From: a virus
DNA length: 64,000 nt
Strand: one strand, 5' to 3'
IMG/VR virus record: IMGVR_UViG_3300036770_001537
The position numbers were made by a program, and so were the translations under genes. Every line of letters starts with the position of its first letter. The stretch's first letter is position 1. Positions 21,855 through 59,580 of this stretch are shown in pieces. A model generated the notes under the pieces. The model searched no databases and was not told the DNA's origin. It worked only from the letters and a program-made list of their open reading frames with translations.

Positions 21855-22256
21855 ATGGCAGTTTTGTTTGATCGTGGATAACTGCCAACCACTAGTACAA
21901 TACGGATGTACCCGACTGATATATTCTGTTTCGAGGTCAATCAGTAAACCCAATGAGATTAAGCCGCTAGGCGTGTCTCAAATGGAGCATTATCGTTTGC
22001 TGCCTTTACGTTGTTTGGACTAATTTTCGGTCGTTCCTTACCGGTATCTCCACTTTCTCCAATACGTCTGTCGATCCTATTTCGCCCCCATCAAAGATAC
22101 ACTGTCTGCACCATGCATCAGCTCTCTCTTTAATGTTTTAGATATCATATTACATCAAGAGTGTTTTGCCTTAAAACTAAACTAATCAGTGTATCTGTGG
22201 TGGAGGCGTTGGGTACTGCCCCCAAGTCCAGTCCGTTCTTCAATTGCTTCAACGAT
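21855..22256 (-). ncRNA. ssrA: two-piece (circularly permuted) tmRNA
   Basis: Acceptor piece ends GGGGGCAGTACCCAACGCCTCCACCA (CCA at 22198). Coding piece starts GGGGGCGAAATAGGATCGAC (22089). G3-U70 pair present. Tag ANDNAPFETRLAA* at 22000-21959. Outer ends approximate. Confidence 0.93.
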
Positions 22257-22263
22257 ACAGTCT

Positions 22264-22271
22264 TATTTATA
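22264..22271 (-). promoter_or_regulatory. late promoter TATAAATA driving tmRNA
   Basis: tatttata just upstream of the acceptor piece. Confidence 0.75.
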
Positions 22272-22290
22272 CCACACCCACACCAGGAAG

Positions 22291-22467
22291 TCAAGCCCTT
22301 TTTCTCTTTTTGACTCTCTTTTTATATTCAGGAAAACTCATCAGATATTGAAATTTGCTTGAAATATATTCTTCATACAACTTCTGATTATTTTTATAAT
22401 GGTGAATGATAGATTTTGTTTTGGCTTTAGATACACTTTTGCTCGTAGTATTATCATAGCCACCCAT
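22291..22467 (-). CDS. hypothetical small basic protein
   Basis: ORF; start MGGYD follows the phosphatase stop. Confidence 0.5.
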   Translation of the reverse strand: MGGYDNTTSKSVSKAKTKSIIHHYKNNQKLYEEYISSKFQYLMSFPEYKKRVKKRKRA

Positions 22468-25301: not shown

Positions 25302-26011
25302 ATCCCCATCTCTGTTCTGGTGACTATATAATCTTTCACAAGCCCAGACCTAACAATATCTGGCTTGTCAAATTCAATATAATCAAATCTGTTCATTTGT
25401 TTAGTTATATTTATAAACTTCATGAGTCCAGATTTATCTTTATCGTTAGACAAGTCGGTTTGTCTAAAGTCACCACAGAAAACAATCTTGGAATCGTCAC
25501 CCATACGAGTCATGACAGTATCGAGTTCACCGAATGTCATATTCTGGAGTTCATCAACAATCACGATTGCGTTTTTGAATGTCACTCCGCGAAGATATGA
25601 TGTTGTCGTGAATTGAACTAGCCCTTTCATTTTTAGAATATCATATCCATCACCACGACCAAACAAATCATCACAGATTTCTTTGTATGGTTCTTCATAT
25701 ACCTTGATCTTCTCTTTGATATTGCCGGGAAGGAAACCCATATCTCTTGATGGCACTACCGAACGAATGATAACAACCTTATCACATACAGAACGGCCTT
25801 TCAATACTTCTTCTAATGCTAGATAAAGAGAGATGAAAGATTTACCTGTTCCAGCGAATCCATGAAGTATCAAATTCTGCCCGTCACGATATGAATCAAA
25901 TGTCTTTTGCTGGTTTGGTGTTAGTGGATAGATTGTTCTAAGTTCAAAGTGTGTTTTTGCTTGTTGAACTTTGCTTTGTAGTTGTTCTCTCTTTACTTTT
26001 CTTTTTGACAT
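25298..26011 (-). CDS. phoH: PhoH-like ATPase
   Basis: GFAGTGKS, RSVVPSRDMGFLPG, RGVTF, VDELQN, FCGDFRQTDL, DIVRSGLV; GGAG RBS before MSKRK. Confidence 0.95.
   Translation of the reverse strand: MSKRKVKREQLQSKVQQAKTHFELRTIYPLTPNQQKTFDSYRDGQNLILHGFAGTGKSFISLYLALEEVLKGRSVCDKVVIIRSVVPSRDMGFLPGNIKEKIKVYEEPYKEICDDLFGRGDGYDILKMKGLVQFTTTSYLRGVTFKNAIVIVDELQNMTFGELDTVMTRMGDDSKIVFCGDFRQTDLSNDKDKSGLMKFINITKQMNRFDYIEFDKPDIVRSGLVKDYIVTRTEMGI
25408..25415 (-). promoter_or_regulatory. late promoter inside phoH, positioned for the two CTS-like genes
   Basis: tatttata about 110 nt upstream of 25301. Confidence 0.5.
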
Positions 26012-26029
26012 AGTGTCTCCTTTATGTAC

Positions 26030-26061
26030 GACAAAGGGCCTACCTTTCGGCAAGCCCTTTG
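26030..26061. terminator. hairpin between HNH gene and phoH (terminator or processing site)
   Basis: acaaagggc..tttcg..gccctttgt inverted repeat. Confidence 0.5.
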
Positions 26062-26098: not shown

Positions 26099-26623
26099 TT
26101 AAATTTCCGTTTTATTATGCTTTTGCAGATGCTGGTTTAAATTACCTTTGCCTCTACACAATTTACCGCAGACATTACATTCATATTTAGGAACTTTGTA
26201 TTGTGCAATTCTATCCAAATCTTTTTCTTCGTCTGTTTTGATACGACCTTTATTCCAAGGAATCTGTCCTATGTGACTCGTCCTCATTTTCTCTTTAGAT
26301 TCCTTTGTAAATTTATAACCAGTTAGTGGATGTCCTTTTGTTTTAAATCTTTTCTTTTGACTGATACCTATAGTTTTTCTGGTTTCATCACTTATAATTC
26401 TATTTTTCATATAGAGTCTTTGTACTTCTTTTATGGCTTCGGCAGAACTAATTTGACCAGATAGCATTTGCCAAGCAATTTTATCTTGCCAGTGACCTAA
26501 GTCCTCCCATAATTGCTTATGTAAAGCAGCATGTTCTTCTACAGTAACAGTGACGAGATTAGATGGGTCATCCGATCCACCCATATGTTTTGGTATGATA
26601 TGGTGCTTGTGATAAATAGTCAT
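26099..26623 (-). CDS. HNH homing endonuclease with NUMOD3-like repeats and C-terminal zinc finger
   Basis: HKHHIIPKHMGGSDDPSNLV..EEHAALH; PWNKG; CNVC..H. Confidence 0.88.
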   Translation of the reverse strand: MTIYHKHHIIPKHMGGSDDPSNLVTVTVEEHAALHKQLWEDLGHWQDKIAWQMLSGQISSAEAIKEVQRLYMKNRIISDETRKTIGISQKKRFKTKGHPLTGYKFTKESKEKMRTSHIGQIPWNKGRIKTDEEKDLDRIAQYKVPKYECNVCGKLCRGKGNLNQHLQKHNKTEI

Positions 26624-26690
26624 GGCTGGTGCTCCTTTCAGCATTAGAGTGGTTGGATGCTGGTAACATCGCGAACCACAACTATTTATA
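26624..26690 (-). promoter_or_regulatory. late promoter plus conserved structured 5' leader of HNH gene (copy 1)
   Basis: TATAAATA..GTGGTTcgcGATGttaccagCATCcAACCAC-TCTAA-TGCTgaaaggAGCA-CCAGCC-ATG; matches the copy at 56495-56566. Confidence 0.8.
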
Positions 26691-26695
26691 ATATA

Positions 26696-26959
26696 TCAAA
26701 TCTCTTTAGGTATAGTCCATCTCTTATTACCAATTGCTGTAGCACCAGGAGTCTTTGCTTTTATCTTTCCCAAGACATATTTCTGAAAATCATTTGACGG
26801 CTTGGTAATGCCAATGTTGGTGGGATCAGCAATGCTAACTTTTGAATATACTCGTTCCATTGTGGTATTTGTCTTTTCAAACTCTACCATCTCTGAAATA
26901 GTCATAGATAGTTCTACGACTTCACCTGTTTCAGTATTTTGATATGTATAGTTGGGCAT
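26696..26959 (-). CDS. FmdB-like small protein
   Basis: MPNYTYQNTETGE N-terminus typical of T4-like FmdB-family proteins. Confidence 0.6.
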   Translation of the reverse strand: MPNYTYQNTETGEVVELSMTISEMVEFEKTNTTMERVYSKVSIADPTNIGITKPSNDFQKYVLGKIKAKTPGATAIGNKRWTIPKEI

Positions 26960-44218: not shown

Positions 44219-44899
44219 TTACAAATTCCAATTTCCATCTTCGTCTGTTTCAATTTTTCTCAAAAAAGGAAATTCTTTCATCAAAAGATATTTACACTCT
44301 TTGGCAATTTCTTGATGTTCTTTTTGTGTCCCATTCTTCTCACGAAGATTAATGTAAGTTAACCAAGACCTCAAACTTCCGGCCATATACAATCTACTGT
44401 TTGTAATACCTTCTGGTAATACTGCTCTTGCTTGTTCTTTGGCAATACCATTATCAATAGCCCACTGATAAGCAAGTCCAGTTTCATGTATGATTTGATC
44501 TTGTTTTTGTTTCCATTGACGTTGAAGAATCTCGTCGTCTGTCTCAATGGAGTTTTGTCGATTTTTCTTGTCTTGAAGACGTGCTTCTCTGACTGTAAAT
44601 CCTAATTGTGATGCATCAGCATAACGCTGACTAAATTCTTGAAAAGAAAATGATCTATGCCTTAGAATCTGCCTGGCAATGTCGCGTGTTGTATTTAGTT
44701 CCATGACGATTTGGACCATCTCAAAAATAGACCAATGTTGATTACGAATACAGTATTGTAGAAGTTTTTCGGATGTTTGTGTGTTTGTTTGGTTCTTAGG
44801 ATTTGATACCCGAGCACAATAGGAAATCAAATCCTCAGCAGTCATAAGTAAATGTTCGTTGGGAACAGGTTTGGTTACGGCAATCAATTTTACACTCAT
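44219..44899 (-). CDS. thyX: flavin-dependent thymidylate synthase
   Basis: CARVSNP, HWSIFEM, RQILRHRSFSFQEFSQRY, ARAVLP, TQKEH. Confidence 0.96.
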   Translation of the reverse strand: MSVKLIAVTKPVPNEHLLMTAEDLISYCARVSNPKNQTNTQTSEKLLQYCIRNQHWSIFEMVQIVMELNTTRDIARQILRHRSFSFQEFSQRYADASQLGFTVREARLQDKKNRQNSIETDDEILQRQWKQKQDQIIHETGLAYQWAIDNGIAKEQARAVLPEGITNSRLYMAGSLRSWLTYINLREKNGTQKEHQEIAKECKYLLMKEFPFLRKIETDEDGNWNL

Positions 44900-45909
44900 A
44901 ATTTTCTCCACATTTCAAATTGAAGTTTGGCTTTGAGTCCTTGATATGTATTAGAGTCTATAATATGCAGAAGTTCACTACTCGTAATACCAGACATAAC
45001 CATATCATTTATATCTTTCTCTTGAGTATATGTCGGCCAGATACAAACTTTATGGTCTGTTTCTATTGACCTGCTAATTTGTTTGACGATGGCAGAATTT
45101 CTTGGTTCATTGTCGTGTATAAAAATGTAATCATGATCGCCAAGAATAGTGGTAATTGTATATAGTGAAGCGTCCATTGTAGCAATACAGTTGGGAATAA
45201 ACATGCTATCAATTGGACCCTCAACAACATATACAGGCTTGGTTAGATCAACATGATTAAGACCAAAAATCTTCATGGCATCATCATTACTCTTGATTGT
45301 GATATACTTGATCTTTGAATCGGTTACAGTTCTACCTTGAACTCCAAGTAGATTATTGTCTTGATCGTAGAATGGTAGCACAATCCTCTTATCGTTATCA
45401 ACTAGTTTCTTGTTATAATTGGGAAAAGTTTCTTTGATGAAAGACTTATAGTCATCAGTATAATAAATTTCAGTAAGTCTTTCGGCTGGAACCTTTCTAT
45501 CTAGAATATACTTCTTACCAAAATGTGAGTCGGGCAACTCTGCAATTGAGGGAATACTGAAAGATTTCTTCTTATTAAAGACTGGTTTTCCTGCTGCCAT
45601 AGAGAAATCGGGTTTGGCAACATTACCACCAGATTGATTCTTATAAGTTTCAAGTTGATATTGAGAAAATAGATGTGGGTCTAACGTCTTGAGAAAATTG
45701 CCAAAAGACATAGATGCTCCGCAGTTATGACATAGGTATGAAATGTTGCTTTTCTTGCGATAGAAATAGCCACGGCACCTATGCTTATTTTTCTTGGAAT
45801 CTCCGCATAGAGGACAACGGAAGTTCCAGAGATAATCATTCTTCTGAGTAAATTTTTCTAGTCTGGTTGAGATGAGAGAGATGAATTGTTTATCAGTGTA
45901 GACAGACAT
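44896..45909 (-). CDS. gp61: DNA primase gp61
   Basis: NFRCPLCGDS..CHNC, QGR, VVEGPIDSMF, DNEPRN, KDINDM. Confidence 0.96.
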   Translation of the reverse strand: MSVYTDKQFISLISTRLEKFTQKNDYLWNFRCPLCGDSKKNKHRCRGYFYRKKSNISYLCHNCGASMSFGNFLKTLDPHLFSQYQLETYKNQSGGNVAKPDFSMAAGKPVFNKKKSFSIPSIAELPDSHFGKKYILDRKVPAERLTEIYYTDDYKSFIKETFPNYNKKLVDNDKRIVLPFYDQDNNLLGVQGRTVTDSKIKYITIKSNDDAMKIFGLNHVDLTKPVYVVEGPIDSMFIPNCIATMDASLYTITTILGDHDYIFIHDNEPRNSAIVKQISRSIETDHKVCIWPTYTQEKDINDMVMSGITSSELLHIIDSNTYQGLKAKLQFEMWRKL

Positions 45910-55918: not shown

Positions 55919-56494
55919 TTATAAATTTCTTCCTTTATACCAGCCTAATGGTATAGTTTCGCATTTTTTTATTTTTTTATTAGTTATCCCATCCGTAATC
56001 CACATTGTACCATATTGAGAATTTTTGATTCCTTGTTGATGTTTATTTTTTGCGAACTGCGACTTTCTAATATTTCTATATTCAGGGTCTTTCCACTTTT
56101 CAAGTAAAACTAGATTATTCTTTTCTAGTGTTTTCAATTTCTGTTTTTTAAACTCTTCATCGGTTTTGTATTTTTCTATGTATGCCTTTATGCCGGATTT
56201 TTGCCATTTTTCTAAATATATTTTTCTATATTCTAAATCAGTATTAAATTTATTTTTATGTATCATGCCGCCTTTTTTACCGCCCATAGACATTGCCATT
56301 AGTGCTGCTTCTTTTGATGATATTAATCCTTCAAGTCCCATCCAAGCAACATAATCTTGCCAGTGTCCTAAGTCTTCCCATAATTGTTTATGTAAAGCAG
56401 CATGTTCTTCTACAGTTACTTCAATAAGATTGGATGGATCGTCTGTTCCACCCATATGTTTAGGTATGATATGATGTGTGTGATAAATAGACAT
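55919..56494 (-). CDS. HNH homing endonuclease
   Basis: HTHHIIPKHMGGTDDPSNL..EEHAALH; C-terminal NSQYGTMWITDG..GWYKGR. Confidence 0.88.
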   Translation of the reverse strand: MSIYHTHHIIPKHMGGTDDPSNLIEVTVEEHAALHKQLWEDLGHWQDYVAWMGLEGLISSKEAALMAMSMGGKKGGMIHKNKFNTDLEYRKIYLEKWQKSGIKAYIEKYKTDEEFKKQKLKTLEKNNLVLLEKWKDPEYRNIRKSQFAKNKHQQGIKNSQYGTMWITDGITNKKIKKCETIPLGWYKGRNL

Positions 56495-56566
56495 GGCTGA
56501 TACCTCCATTATAGGTGTTAGAGTGGTTAGATGCTTCCAACATCGTGAACCACATTTTTATTTATA
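56495..56566 (-). promoter_or_regulatory. late promoter plus conserved structured 5' leader of HNH gene (copy 2)
   Basis: TATAAATA..GTGGTTcacGATGttggaagCATCtAACCAC-TCTAA-cACCTataatggAGGT-aTCAGCC-ATG. Confidence 0.8.
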
Positions 56567-56581
56567 TGCCTATATTGGAAA

Positions 56582-56663
56582 TGGTCCGGAGGGTGGGGGT
56601 CGAACCCACATTTGCAGCTCCTTTACGATTAGCGGTTTAGAAGACCACCTCGGCTACCTCCGG
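56582..56663 (-). tRNA. tRNA-Arg(TCT)-like RNA lacking a D-arm, with a 22-nt variable region
   Basis: Perfect acceptor CCGGAGG/CCTCCGG + ACCA; GTGGG-TTCGACC-CCCAC T-arm; GTGGT-CTTCTAA-ACCGC; own promoter TTGACT-17-TACTAT at 56690-56718. Confidence 0.7.
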
Positions 56664-56727
56664 TTATTCTTTATTTCTCATCATGATTAATAGTACCACA
56701 GGCATAATGTGAAGTCAAGCACTTTTT

Positions 56728-57183
56728 TTACAATAATTGGATATTATTATCAATCATAGACAATGTTTTTTCAACTGCTTTGAAATGAGAGCATTCACCC
56801 AAAGAAATATTAATTGGATTATTAAAGAAGCCTTTGGGCTGCTGGTGCTTCTCAATATAGTTTAGATGAACGCCAACATTCTTTAATTTGGGTCTTGCGT
56901 TACCAAAAGATGAAGTAACAGTATGATATGATCCAACTGTTAGCATTCTTGTATAATGAATGTCTGGTGTTCTTTTGGCAAGATCATATGCAGATACTGC
57001 ACCACGAGAATACCCTAGAATTTCAATATGATCGGAATCAAGATCGGTTACATAATCAATAGCATCAGCAACTTCAAAATAATTGAAAATTCTAAGTTTA
57101 TAGTCGTGCTTTTGGCACCACTTTTTCATAGTAGAATCTTCAAAAATGTTATTGAGTCCTCTAAACGCTATCATGTGTTTCAT
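56728..57183 (-). CDS. minimal alpha/beta-hydrolase-like protein
   Basis: AFRG, ILGYSRGA nucleophile elbow, C-terminal SH. Confidence 0.65.
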   Translation of the reverse strand: MKHMIAFRGLNNIFEDSTMKKWCQKHDYKLRIFNYFEVADAIDYVTDLDSDHIEILGYSRGAVSAYDLAKRTPDIHYTRMLTVGSYHTVTSSFGNARPKLKNVGVHLNYIEKHQQPKGFFNNPINISLGECSHFKAVEKTLSMIDNNIQLL

Positions 57184-57307: not shown

Positions 57308-58531
57308 CTATTTAGTTGCTTTGGTGTTATGTGTTAATGATGCAACCGGTGTATATCCATATTCTTGCATCAAAAATGGTAGCATATAATGTTTGATATT
57401 ATATTTTACTATGTCTTTATCTTCCAAAGAAGCACCTGCCTTCATTCCCCTAGAATGTGCTACTGCAATTGTAGCTATATGTAATGGGCTTCCGCCCTCT
57501 GCACTATGGGCAAATAATCTTATAGAAGATTTTTTCTTCCCTCCTCTAGTTTCAAATTCCATAGAATAGTCTGTGGGTTTAAATCTATCTTGAAAAAATT
57601 TCCATGCATGATCCACATCATATATATGTGTGCCCTCACTACTATCTACTACCCTCCACCTTTTTATGTGTGGTTCTTGCTCTCTTGTTCCAGATGGTAT
57701 CAATTCATGTTGATTCATAAAAGTGTTGGCTAATCTTATTCTTTCCGATTGTTTTCTCTTATCTGATATAGAGTCATTTCTTGTTCTTATTTTTGAACCC
57801 ATACCACCTTTAGTATATAATGGACTTTTATAAAATAGTCTTTTAATTTTTCCTAATGTAGATAATCTTTCTTTATATTTTTTGGAACCTCTAGTCATTG
57901 TCGATGGAACTAAGTCTTTCTTGGCAACCCATTCACCTTTATCATTTTTTATAGTTCCTGTTAATACTCTATTCAATCTTTCGGCCATAGGGTTAAAATG
58001 ACTGTACTGTGGGCTCATTTTCAAATCTATCAGATATGTATCTGGGCGTCCATCTTTCGCATTATTTAATTTTGTTATCAAGTCCTCAACTGCTCTACCG
58101 GAAGTGAATGATGGAACCCCCATAGATTTTCTCACTGCATTTTTTGTTTGTGTTGATGAATCTTTTGTTTCATGTGAATGTGAGGTTGGGTTTATGCCAG
58201 ATACTGCATACATTGCGTGATGTATAAAATGTGCAATATTTCTTGATCTGGCTTCATCATTTGGACTATTTGCTGTATATTGTAATGTTTGAATTACCCC
58301 TTTATTTTCAGCATCATTTGTCATAGGATAATATGAGAAATTTTCATATCCGAGAGGGGATTCTGATGATCCTTTAGGATAATTGGCGGACGCAATTAGA
58401 GATGAATTTGTGTTTGCCATATTCAATGATGTAGAATTTTTAATTAATCTTGGTTCCGATTTAAGTGCTGGCTCTAAAGTTCCCCTTTTACCGGTAGCCA
58501 TCTCTGCAATATATTGTCTAAATGTGAGCAT
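57308..58531 (-). CDS. putative capsid-internal protein (MLTFRQYIAE)
   Basis: CTS-like start; late promoter 58560-58567. Confidence 0.7.
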   Translation of the reverse strand: MLTFRQYIAEMATGKRGTLEPALKSEPRLIKNSTSLNMANTNSSLIASANYPKGSSESPLGYENFSYYPMTNDAENKGVIQTLQYTANSPNDEARSRNIAHFIHHAMYAVSGINPTSHSHETKDSSTQTKNAVRKSMGVPSFTSGRAVEDLITKLNNAKDGRPDTYLIDLKMSPQYSHFNPMAERLNRVLTGTIKNDKGEWVAKKDLVPSTMTRGSKKYKERLSTLGKIKRLFYKSPLYTKGGMGSKIRTRNDSISDKRKQSERIRLANTFMNQHELIPSGTREQEPHIKRWRVVDSSEGTHIYDVDHAWKFFQDRFKPTDYSMEFETRGGKKKSSIRLFAHSAEGGSPLHIATIAVAHSRGMKAGASLEDKDIVKYNIKHYMLPFLMQEYGYTPVASLTHNTKATK

Positions 58532-59489: not shown

Positions 59490-59495
59490 GTTATG

Positions 59496-59580
59496 CTCTG
59501 GCGGTTGGACTCGAACCAACGACGGACTTTCGCCAACAGATTAACAGTCTGCTCCCTGCTACCAACTCGGGTACACCAGA
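59496..59580 (-). tRNA. trnN: tRNA-Asn(GTT) with long variable arm, no encoded CCA
   Basis: TCTGGTG/CGCCAGA+G; GCAGA-CTGTTAA-TCTGT; variable TGGCGAAAGTCCGTC; GTTGG-TTCGAGT-CCAAC; late promoter 59602-59609. Confidence 0.85.

What the first reader, a model, noticed from the sequence alone, without database searches (positions are those of the whole stretch)
56582..56663. D-arm-less tRNA-Arg(UCU)-like RNA with its own promoter
Seen: perfect 7-bp acceptor with ACCA, a canonical T-arm and an anticodon arm (CUUCUAA). Only 8 nt (UAGCCGAG) lie where the D-arm should be, and the variable region is 22 nt (UAAUCGUAAAGGAGCUGCAAAU), whose GCU could pair with the AGC of the linker. A dedicated sigma70-type promoter is upstream. 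The intact stems argue against decay. Inference: either a re-wired tRNA topology or a tRNA-mimic decoy against anticodon nucleases or other tRNA-targeting toxins.
Basis: partly seen in the sequence, partly recalled or inferred. Interest (0 to 1): 0.72.

Follow-up and report, generated by a model that had tools for sequence, protein, structure and literature searches.

The report
Rewired phage arginine tRNA gene
This marine phage carries a conserved gene for an arginine tRNA (reads AGA) whose D-arm parts lie on either side of the anticodon arm instead of before it; this non-cloverleaf design is shared by at least 125 phage tRNA genes, is missed by standard gene finders, and appears in no paper I could search.

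Summary
Window 56582-56663 (minus strand) holds an 82-nt tRNA-like gene with a perfect 7-bp acceptor stem plus ACCA, a canonical T-arm and a CUUCUAA anticodon loop (UCU), but no D hairpin. It is not decayed.

- **Structure:** the 8-nt "linker" and the 22-nt "variable region" pair with each other in two helices around the anticodon arm. Covariation across 125 distinct homologues from 90 phage loci supports every helix.
- **D-loop-like loop:** a conserved UA-R-nn-GG-N loop follows the anticodon arm. Its R covaries perfectly with the base before the T-stem, like the Levitt pair 15:48 (33 A/U, 30 G/C, no mismatched combination).
- **Identity marks:** every member carries an Arg or Ile anticodon, except one with CAU. 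GG is followed by A in 85/87 Arg forms (A20 is the main ArgRS determinant). All 37 Ile forms have A73.
- **Detection:** ARAGORN misses about 90% of members.
- **Context:** AGA makes up 56% of this phage's Arg codons, and one of the phage's repeated early promoters precedes the gene.

Best reading: a working, chargeable tRNA-Arg(UCU) with an internally permuted D/anticodon domain. A pure decoy is unlikely. Why the core is rewired remains unknown.

This scan has found the same family before on other DNA, including Felix O1-type phages. I confirmed the Felix O1 copy myself.

The parts
56690..56718 (-). sigma-70-type early promoter: TTGACT, 17-nt spacer, TG, TACTAT
   Evidence: Consensus scan. Aligns with four repeated promoter cassettes at 28.6-31.1 kb.
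56664..56689 (-). 5' leader containing the cassette motif CATGATGAG (56677-56685); presumably removed by RNase P
   Evidence: Processing is inferred.
56657..56663 (-). acceptor stem, 5' strand (CCGGAGG)
   Evidence: Pairs perfectly with 56586-56592. All 7 pairs covary in the family.
56653..56656 (-). U8 A9 G C: 5' strand of helix a
   Evidence: Pairs with GCUG at 56615-56618. The inner two pairs covary (GC/AU/UA; UA/CG). UA at positions 8-9 is near-invariant.
56650..56652 (-). CGA: 5' strand of helix b (D-stem-like helix stacked on the anticodon stem)
   Evidence: Pairs with UCG at 56626-56628. All 3 pairs covary. Also predicted by RNAalifold on an unfitted alignment.
56631..56649 (-). anticodon arm: 6-bp stem (GGUGGU/ACCGCU) and loop CUUCUAA; anticodon UCU at 56639-56641
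   Evidence: U33 and A37 are present.
56629..56630 (-). 2-nt bulge (AA) between the anticodon stem and helix b
56626..56628 (-). UCG: 3' strand of helix b
56619..56625 (-). D-loop-like loop UAAAGGA (read as A14, A15, G18, G19, A20)
   Evidence: The family consensus is UA-R-nn-GG-N. R covaries with the base before the T-stem. GG is kept in nearly every member. A follows GG in 85/87 Arg forms.
56615..56618 (-). GCUG: 3' strand of helix a
56610..56614 (-). A-rich linker CAAAU ending in the Y48-like U
56593..56609 (-). T-arm: GUGGG, loop UUCGACC, CCCAC
56582..56592 (-). acceptor stem 3' strand (CCUCCGG), discriminator A, encoded CCA

Best explanation
The gene encodes a working phage tRNA-Arg(UCU) with a non-cloverleaf core. 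Host RNA polymerase transcribes it early from one of the phage's repeated sigma-70 promoters. It is then trimmed, charged by the host arginyl-tRNA synthetase and used to read AGA, the phage's main arginine codon.

Compared with a normal tRNA, two neighbouring inner segments have swapped places. One D-stem strand now comes first, then the anticodon arm, then the other D-stem strand, then the D-loop. This amounts to a circular permutation of the D/anticodon domain. A short extra helix (helix a) ties together the points where the chain enters and leaves that domain.

- **Shown:** the secondary structure; its conservation; the displaced D-loop signature with its 15:48-like covariation; and the restriction of the family to Arg and Ile anticodons, with matching identity marks.
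- **Inferred:** folding into an L-shape, charging and decoding.
- **Not known:** why the rewiring is kept. My leading guess (about 25-30%) is escape from host or phage factors that read the normal D-arm region. A frozen accident tolerated by ArgRS and IleRS is about as likely.
For: - **Structure:** 91.5% of cells are paired against 63.7% in shuffles. The covariation score is 0.703, against 0.196 in shuffles and 0.10-0.13 in slid controls, and all five helices are supported. A MAFFT alignment that was not fitted to the model gives the same picture.
- **Family size:** 125 distinct sequences from 90 loci, with Arg anticodons (UCU, UCG, ACG, CCU, GCG), Ile anticodons (GAU, UAU) and one CAU.
- **Arg identity marks:** A follows GG in 85/87 Arg forms. 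A20 is the main ArgRS determinant (PMC9976931).
- **Ile identity marks:** all 37 Ile forms have A73, and most have GG-U.
- **Tertiary pair:** a scan that allowed all four combinations of GUA[R]...GAAAA[Y] returned 33 A/U, 30 G/C and no mismatched combination. Both types occur within the Arg forms and within the Ile forms.
- **tRNA model:** the Rfam tRNA model scores the gene 33.2 bits, above its cut-off of 29.
- **Codon usage here:** AGA is 55.8% of Arg codons in the window, and the 74.5-kb record holds no ordinary tRNA-Arg.
- **Phage IME180:** in Pseudomonas phage IME180 the rewired gene is the only tRNA gene, and AGA is 23% of its Arg codons.
- **Felix O1:** this phage has an unannotated copy. 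Its genome paper expected an AGA tRNA and did not find one (PMC3185647).
- **Expression:** the upstream promoter belongs to the phage's early-promoter cassette.
Against: - There are no expression, charging or decoding data for any member.
- The discriminator in Arg forms is U in 34/87, whereas bacterial tRNA-Arg normally has A or G.
- Several phages carry an ordinary tRNA-Arg(UCU) as well as the rewired one, for example L003. The rewired copy is therefore not merely a replacement and may do something different.
- I could not build a 3-D model. Whether the loop reaches the T-loop while helix a stays formed is unresolved.
- My search patterns fixed parts of the loop and linker, so some conservation figures are inflated.
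- The in-silico de-permutation test discriminates only weakly: 90/108 recognised, against 59/108 for a shuffled control.
Confidence: 0.7

Rival explanations
1. It is a tRNA mimic that is not used in translation. It would act as a decoy or sponge for a host tRNA-targeting nuclease or toxin, or for another tRNA-binding factor.
For: Anti-phage systems do target tRNAs. PARIS AriB reads the D-loop as well as the anticodon stem (PMC12409363). Some phages keep an ordinary tRNA-Arg(UCU) beside the rewired one. PNK-like genes lie near 7 of 60 loci, and an RNA ligase lies near the Boevelstad copy.
Against: A decoy would not need synthetase identity marks that track the anticodon: the A20-like A in 85/87 Arg forms and A73 in 37/37 Ile forms. 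It would also not need a full set of Arg and Ile isoacceptor anticodons. The gene is the sole tRNA gene of IME180, which uses AGA often. No partner protein is conserved nearby.
Confidence: 0.1
2. It is charged with arginine but serves a non-ribosomal role, for example as an amino-acid donor for a transferase or as a regulatory RNA.
For: Special-purpose tRNAs with odd bodies are known elsewhere (my own knowledge, for example the cell-wall tRNA-Gly of staphylococci). Duplication alongside ordinary isoacceptors would fit such a role.
Against: The anticodon loop is fully canonical, and five Arg and two Ile anticodons are maintained. No conserved enzyme gene accompanies the RNA.
Confidence: 0.05
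3. It is a precursor that is cut and re-ligated into an ordinary cloverleaf tRNA, as happens with the permuted tRNA genes of Cyanidioschyzon.
For: RNA ligase or PNK-like genes occur near some loci.
Against: Restoring the normal order would need several cuts and joins of inner segments, and no known pathway does that. Helix a and the A-rich linker are conserved, which fits parts of a mature fold better than discarded spacers. IME180 has no annotated RNA ligase.
Confidence: 0.04
4. It is a decaying tRNA pseudogene or a chance tRNA-like sequence.
For: Standard finders do not call it.
Against: There are compensatory changes in every helix across 125 distinct sequences from unrelated phages. It has its own promoter.
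Confidence: 0.01

Closest known systems
Ordinary bacterial and phage tRNA-Arg(UCU) (Rfam RF00005; e.g. E. coli argU, phage T4 tRNA-Arg)
   Same: 7-bp acceptor stem, 5-bp T-stem with a UUCGA-type loop, a 7-nt anticodon loop with U33 and A37, U8-A9, the GG-A motif, and a 15:48-type pair. It scores above the Rfam cut-off when filters are relaxed.
   Different: There is no D hairpin between position 9 and the anticodon arm. The D-loop-like loop and one strand of the D-stem-like helix lie 3' of the anticodon arm. An extra helix a and an A-rich linker are present.
D-armless mitochondrial tRNAs of animals, e.g. mt-tRNA-Ser(AGY/UCU) (PMC7609411, PMC9427863)
   Same: No D hairpin lies 5' of the anticodon arm, and the anticodon helix is extended.
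   Different: The mitochondrial tRNAs have lost the D-loop/T-loop marks and rely on adapted mitochondrial enzymes. Here the marks are kept but moved, and the RNA must work with ordinary bacterial machinery.
Permuted RNAs: permuted tRNA genes of Cyanidioschyzon, the two-piece permuted tmRNA (one lies in this window), and the non-circular permutations found in ribozymes (PMC10085705)
   Same: The order of structural segments along the chain is changed, while the fold is presumably kept.
   Different: Permuted tRNA genes are restored to normal tRNAs by processing. Here only an inner domain is permuted, and the mature RNA is expected to stay permuted. PMC10085705 says no non-circular permutation of a natural RNA was known before that work, and it names none for tRNA.
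Other non-standard tRNAs: tRNA-Sec, tRNA-Pyl, allo-tRNAs (PMC7609411)
   Same: Natural, active tRNAs that depart from the standard dimensions.
   Different: Those tRNAs keep the cloverleaf order of arms. This one does not.
tRNA-like structures at the 3' ends of plant virus RNAs (PMC7749636)
   Same: They achieve a chargeable tRNA shape with different strand connectivity.
   Different: Those are 3' ends of RNA genomes with a pseudoknotted acceptor. This is a free-standing gene in a DNA phage, with a normal acceptor stem and a real anticodon.

Membership tests
tRNA (Rfam RF00005, clan CL00001) | 7-bp acceptor stem, discriminator base and 3' CCA | tested here: met
   Perfect 7 bp plus A-CCA. All 7 pairs covary.
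tRNA (Rfam RF00005, clan CL00001) | T-arm: 5-bp stem and 7-nt loop with U54 U55 C56 and A58 | tested here: met
   GUGGG / UUCGACC / CCCAC.
tRNA (Rfam RF00005, clan CL00001) | Anticodon arm with a 7-nt loop, U33 and a purine at 37 | tested here: met
   Loop CUUCUAA on a 5-6-bp stem.
tRNA (Rfam RF00005, clan CL00001) | D-arm hairpin between position 9 and the anticodon arm (cloverleaf order) | tested here: not met
   Only 8 nt lie there, and they pair with sequence 3' of the anticodon arm. The Rfam alignment deletes the D-arm.
tRNA (Rfam RF00005, clan CL00001) | Score at or above the curated cut-off; called by standard finders | tested here: inconclusive
   33.2 bits against a cut-off of 29 with relaxed filters. 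Missed by the default whole-window scan and by ARAGORN. ARAGORN overlaps only 7 of 72 family members, usually with wrong ends or a wrong anticodon.
tRNA (Rfam RF00005, clan CL00001) | Tertiary-core signature: U8, A14, R15:Y48, G18 G19 | tested here: met
   All are present but in displaced order. The R/Y covariation is 33 A/U + 30 G/C, with no mismatched combination. UA occupies positions 8-9 in 123/125. Actual 3-D contacts were not tested.
Arginine-accepting tRNA (bacterial ArgRS identity set) | A20 in the D-loop, C35, U/G36 (PMC9976931) | tested here: met
   GG-A in the loop (85/87 Arg forms). C35 and U36 are present. Whether the A sits where A20 does is inferred.
Arginine-accepting tRNA (bacterial ArgRS identity set) | Discriminator A73 or G73 | tested here: met
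   The window copy has A. Across the family the counts are U 34, A 33, G 17, C 3, so this mark is loose.
Arginine-accepting tRNA (bacterial ArgRS identity set) | Aminoacylation with arginine and decoding of AGA | not testable with these tools
   Needs charging and translation assays.
D-armless mitochondrial-type tRNA | Loss of the D-stem and of the D-loop/T-loop interaction marks | tested here: not met
   A D-stem-like helix b, a GG loop and a canonical T-loop are all kept.
tmRNA tRNA-like domain | G3:U70 alanine determinant and a tag reading frame | tested here: not met
   Pair 3:70 is G-C and there is no reading frame. Rfam places the window's tmRNA at 21915-22298 instead.

The most novel reading that the evidence does not exclude
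Phages carry a widespread class of elongator tRNAs (Arg and Ile) whose D/anticodon domain is permuted within the molecule, so they cannot form the cloverleaf. They nevertheless fold into an L-shape and work with ordinary bacterial synthetases, EF-Tu and ribosomes. These would be the first natural non-cloverleaf tRNAs of the bacterial world and the first non-circular permutation of a tRNA. The design may be kept because it hides the tRNA from host defences, or from phage weapons, that read the normal D-arm region.
Probability: 0.5. Interest if true: 0.9.

Novelty: new variant of a known kind. Interest (0 to 1): 0.82.

Why it matters

If these RNAs are charged and decode, several things follow:
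- **tRNA architecture:** the bacterial translation apparatus accepts a tRNA with a different strand topology. That bears on tRNA evolution, on synthetase recognition and on the design of orthogonal tRNAs.
- **Phage annotation:** tRNA inventories and codon-usage arguments for phages are systematically incomplete. ARAGORN misses about 90% of members. Felix O1's "missing" AGA tRNA and the only tRNA gene of IME180 are both of this kind.
- **Phage-host conflict:** the family offers a concrete test of whether phages reshape tRNA bodies, and not only anticodon loops, to escape tRNA-targeting immunity.

For this window specifically, it adds the AGA-reading tRNA to the phage's small tRNA set.

Tried and rejected
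- **Other folds:** an alternative D-stem UAGC/GCUA enclosing the anticodon arm exists in the window copy, but homologues do not keep it. I found no second anticodon-like hairpin in the 22-nt segment.
- **Partner protein:** I clustered 1663 ORFs from 60 loci. Only homing endonucleases recur (24, 9 and 7 loci), plus a PNK-like P-loop protein in 7 loci. Nothing is universal. The window's neighbours at 56728-57183 and 57308-58531 have no Pfam or PHROG match.
- **Cellular genomes:** one pattern scan of 185,579 species gave 6 hits, 5 confirmed by the model. All lie on short MAG contigs, and those checked carry dense tRNA arrays and PHROG-type proteins, so they are probably phage DNA.
- **T-stem-free pattern:** it returned many chance hits. 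Only 17 of the matches in 76 new loci were real, and all were Arg.
- **Model sensitivity:** model R1 was built from one sub-type and under-scores the Streptomyces-phage sub-type. Mildred21's "tRNA-OTHER" was found by BLAST and read by eye rather than by R1.
- **De-permutation test:** in-silico de-permutation followed by ARAGORN is only weakly discriminating: 90/108, against 59/108 for the shuffled control.
- **3-D model:** I tried to reason out a unique 3-D model and could not. Two arrangements remain open: helix a stacked on helix b, or helix a replacing the core layers.
- **Literature:** eight full-text searches found no description of such phage tRNAs. Subscription journals are not covered.

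Full report
**What is there.** On the minus strand, 56663->56582 reads:
- acceptor strand CCGGAGG
- UAGC
- CGA
- GGUGGU, loop CUUCUAA, ACCGCU
- AA
- UCG
- UAAAGGA
- GCUG
- CAAAU
- T-arm GUGGG-UUCGACC-CCCAC
- acceptor strand CCUCCGG
- A, then CCA

ARAGORN finds three other tRNAs in the window but not this one, and the default Rfam scan also misses it. With relaxed filters the Rfam tRNA model scores it 33.2 bits (cut-off 29). The alignment deletes the D-arm and places a 19-nt insert after the anticodon arm. The minimum-free-energy fold pairs the 8-nt "linker" with the 22-nt "variable region". The result is an acceptor stem, a T-arm and one long composite arm. That arm consists of helix a (UAGC/GCUG), a 7-nt loop on the 3' side, helix b (CGA/UCG), a 2-nt bulge, and the anticodon stem-loop.

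**The fold is conserved.**
- BLAST found full-length relatives in Pseudomonas phage Boevelstad, Maribacter phage Panino and a 635-kb uncultured phage.
- Pattern scans of IMG/VR, followed by a covariance model (R1), raised the count to 125 distinct sequences from 90 loci.
- On a MAFFT alignment of 18 sequences, 87% of cells are paired against 66% in shuffles. The covariation score is 0.565, against 0.177 in shuffles and 0.09-0.18 in slid controls.
- On 69 model-aligned sequences the figures are 91.5% against 63.7%, and 0.703 against 0.196 (slid 0.10-0.13). All five helices are supported.
- RNAalifold, run on the unfitted alignment, independently recovers the acceptor stem, helix b, the anticodon stem and the T stem.
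- Ordinary tRNAs in the same loci score 35 bits or less with R1, while family members score 43-97 bits.
- Two sub-types exist. One, like the window, has helix a of 4 bp and helix b of 3 bp. The other has helix a of about 2 bp and helix b of 4 bp with a bulge.

**It keeps the marks of a real tRNA, in a different order.**
- UA occupies positions 8-9 in 123/125 members.
- The loop after helix b has the consensus UA-R-nn-GG-N. This reads like a D-loop (A14, R15, G18, G19, N20).
- In a scan that allowed all four combinations, the R and the base just before the T-stem were A/U in 33 distinct sequences and G/C in 30, and never A/C or G/U. Both types occur within the Arg forms and within the Ile forms. 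This is the behaviour of the Levitt pair 15:48.
- Anticodons are Arg (UCU 46, UCG 23, ACG 9, CCU 7, GCG 2), Ile (UAU 21, GAU 16) and one CAU.
- GG is followed by A in 85/87 Arg forms. A20 is the main determinant for bacterial ArgRS (PMC9976931).
- Ile forms mostly have GG-U, and all 37 have A73. Arg forms have a loose discriminator (U 34, A 33, G 17, C 3).
- Caveat: several search patterns fixed GGA or AAAAU, so only the result and the hits found by the model alone are unbiased.

**Reading of the architecture (inference).**
- Helix b stacks on the anticodon stem as the D-stem does.
- The 3' strand of helix b leads into the D-loop-like loop, just as positions 10-13 lead into 14-21.
- The 5' strand of helix b runs straight into the anticodon stem, as positions 22-25 do.
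- The order along the chain is therefore 8-9, [22-25], [anticodon arm], [44-45], [10-13], [14-20], then 46-48.
- The D/anticodon domain is thus circularly permuted inside the tRNA. Seen over the whole molecule, this is a non-circular permutation.
- The three new joins (9 to 22, 45 to 10, 21 to 46) connect residues that are neighbours in the known tRNA core. The known contacts are the triples 9:12:23, 45:10:25 and 46:22:13 and the 8:14:21 layer (established knowledge of yeast tRNA-Phe). An L-shape is therefore plausible.
- An internal tandem duplication followed by deletions could produce this order.
- Putting the segments back in cloverleaf order makes ARAGORN, 108 as ordinary 75-nt tRNAs with the right anticodon, against 0/108 in native order. 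A control with a shuffled D region still gives 59/108, so this test is only supportive.
- I could not settle the 3-D position of helix a.

**Function.**
- The window is part of a 74.5-kb IMG/VR phage record, about 45% complete. It also carries an alpha-type permuted tmRNA.
- AGA is 55.8% of its Arg codons (27 per 1000 codons). The record holds only four tRNA-type genes (Gly, Trp, a long tRNA-Asn and this one), and no ordinary tRNA-Arg.
- The upstream TTGACT-17-TACTAT promoter aligns with four repeated promoter cassettes that share the leader CATGATGAG. Early transcription by the host polymerase is therefore likely.
- In Pseudomonas phage IME180 (49.5 kb, 44.6% GC), ARAGORN finds no tRNA gene. 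The rewired tRNA-Arg(UCU) is the only one, it is unannotated, and AGA is 23% of the phage's Arg codons.
- Felix O1 has an unannotated, divergent member at 25951-26032, next to an HNH endonuclease gene. Its genome paper noted that a tRNA for Arg[AGA] would have been expected (PMC3185647).
- Together with the identity marks, these facts favour a chargeable, decoding tRNA.

**Why rewired?** This is unknown.
- The family is essentially confined to phages. A scan of 185,579 species' genomes gave only five confirmed hits, all on short MAG contigs that look viral.
- Several phages carry both an ordinary and a rewired tRNA-Arg(UCU), which hints at a separate benefit.
- There is a precedent for a defence nuclease that reads the D-loop: PARIS AriB, where a single D-loop change impairs cleavage (PMC12409363).
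- Escape from such factors is my leading guess, but it is untested. A frozen accident tolerated by ArgRS and IleRS is about as likely.
- No conserved partner protein lies nearby.

**Rivals.**
- Decay is excluded by the covariation.
- A pure decoy does not explain identity marks that follow the anticodon, nor the sole-tRNA case of IME180.
- Re-ligation into a normal tRNA would need several cuts and joins, and it would discard conserved parts.

**Novelty.**
- Eight full-text searches found no description of such tRNAs.
- A 2020 review of non-canonical tRNAs has no phage case.
- A 2024 paper states that all known bacterial tRNAs are cloverleaves.
- A 2023 paper reports the first non-circular permutations in natural RNAs, and none of them is a tRNA.
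- Public records leave the gene blank, cover it with a hypothetical ORF, or label it "tRNA-OTHER".
- Earlier agents of this scan reported the same family on other phages. I re-derived the structure before reading those notes and then checked their Felix O1 lead myself.

I file it as a new variant of a known kind: a tRNA with a new topology.

Noticed in passing
window 55919-56575 (-): Directly 3' of the tRNA gene lies a T4-type late-promoter motif TATAAATA (56559-56566), then a structured leader, then a 196-aa HNH-type homing endonuclease (PHROG 655; weak Pfam HNH). The promoter-plus-leader closely matches a second copy near 26600-26700 (-), so this looks like a mobile endonuclease cassette. 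Felix O1's rewired tRNA also has an HNH gene immediately downstream.
   Followed up: partly
window 59495-59580 (-); L003:2817-2903: ARAGORN calls an 86-nt tRNA-Asn(GUU) with a long extra arm, which is unusual for Asn. A similar 87-nt tRNA-Asn occurs in the 635-kb uncultured phage LR745206.
   Followed up: no
window 21915-22298 (-): Rfam finds a permuted, alphaproteobacterial-type tmRNA (104.7 and 91.1 bits). This hints at an alphaproteobacterial host.
   Followed up: no
L044:440-530 (+): A relative with an Arg-UCG-type body has the anticodon loop CUUCAAA (UCA, which reads UGA) and an extra insert before the T-arm. It may be a stop-codon or UGA reader derived from the rewired Arg family.
   Followed up: no
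L108:2702-2781 (+): This is the single rewired member with anticodon CAU (Ile2 or Met), GG-U and A73. The design may therefore extend beyond Arg and Ile.
   Followed up: no
L072 (Pseudomonas phage IME180, MF788075) 44864-44946 (-): The rewired tRNA-Arg(UCU) sits in an unannotated 277-nt gap and is the phage's only tRNA gene. The same gene is present in HHBS10_2 and vB_PaeM_Ty, where a hypothetical ORF covers it.
   Followed up: partly
L226 (Felix O1, NC_005282) 25951-26032 (+): This unannotated rewired tRNA-Arg(UCU) has a G3:U70 pair and a longer bulge. The annotated HNH endonuclease CDS starts at 26003 and so overlaps the 3' part of the tRNA, which makes that start codon doubtful.
   Followed up: partly
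L008:5092-6060, L048:3296-4228 and five other loci; L001:2895-4025: P-loop kinase (AAA_33, PNK-like) genes lie near the tRNA arrays in 7 of 60 loci, and an RNA ligase gene lies about 300 nt from the Boevelstad copy. These may be tRNA-repair genes.
   Followed up: partly
L062:1650-2108 (+): A MAG contig assigned to Saccharofermentanales carries three rewired tRNAs in a row (70-82 bits), plus a weaker fourth match (36.7 bits), inside a 16-tRNA array. It is probably a mis-binned phage contig.
   Followed up: partly
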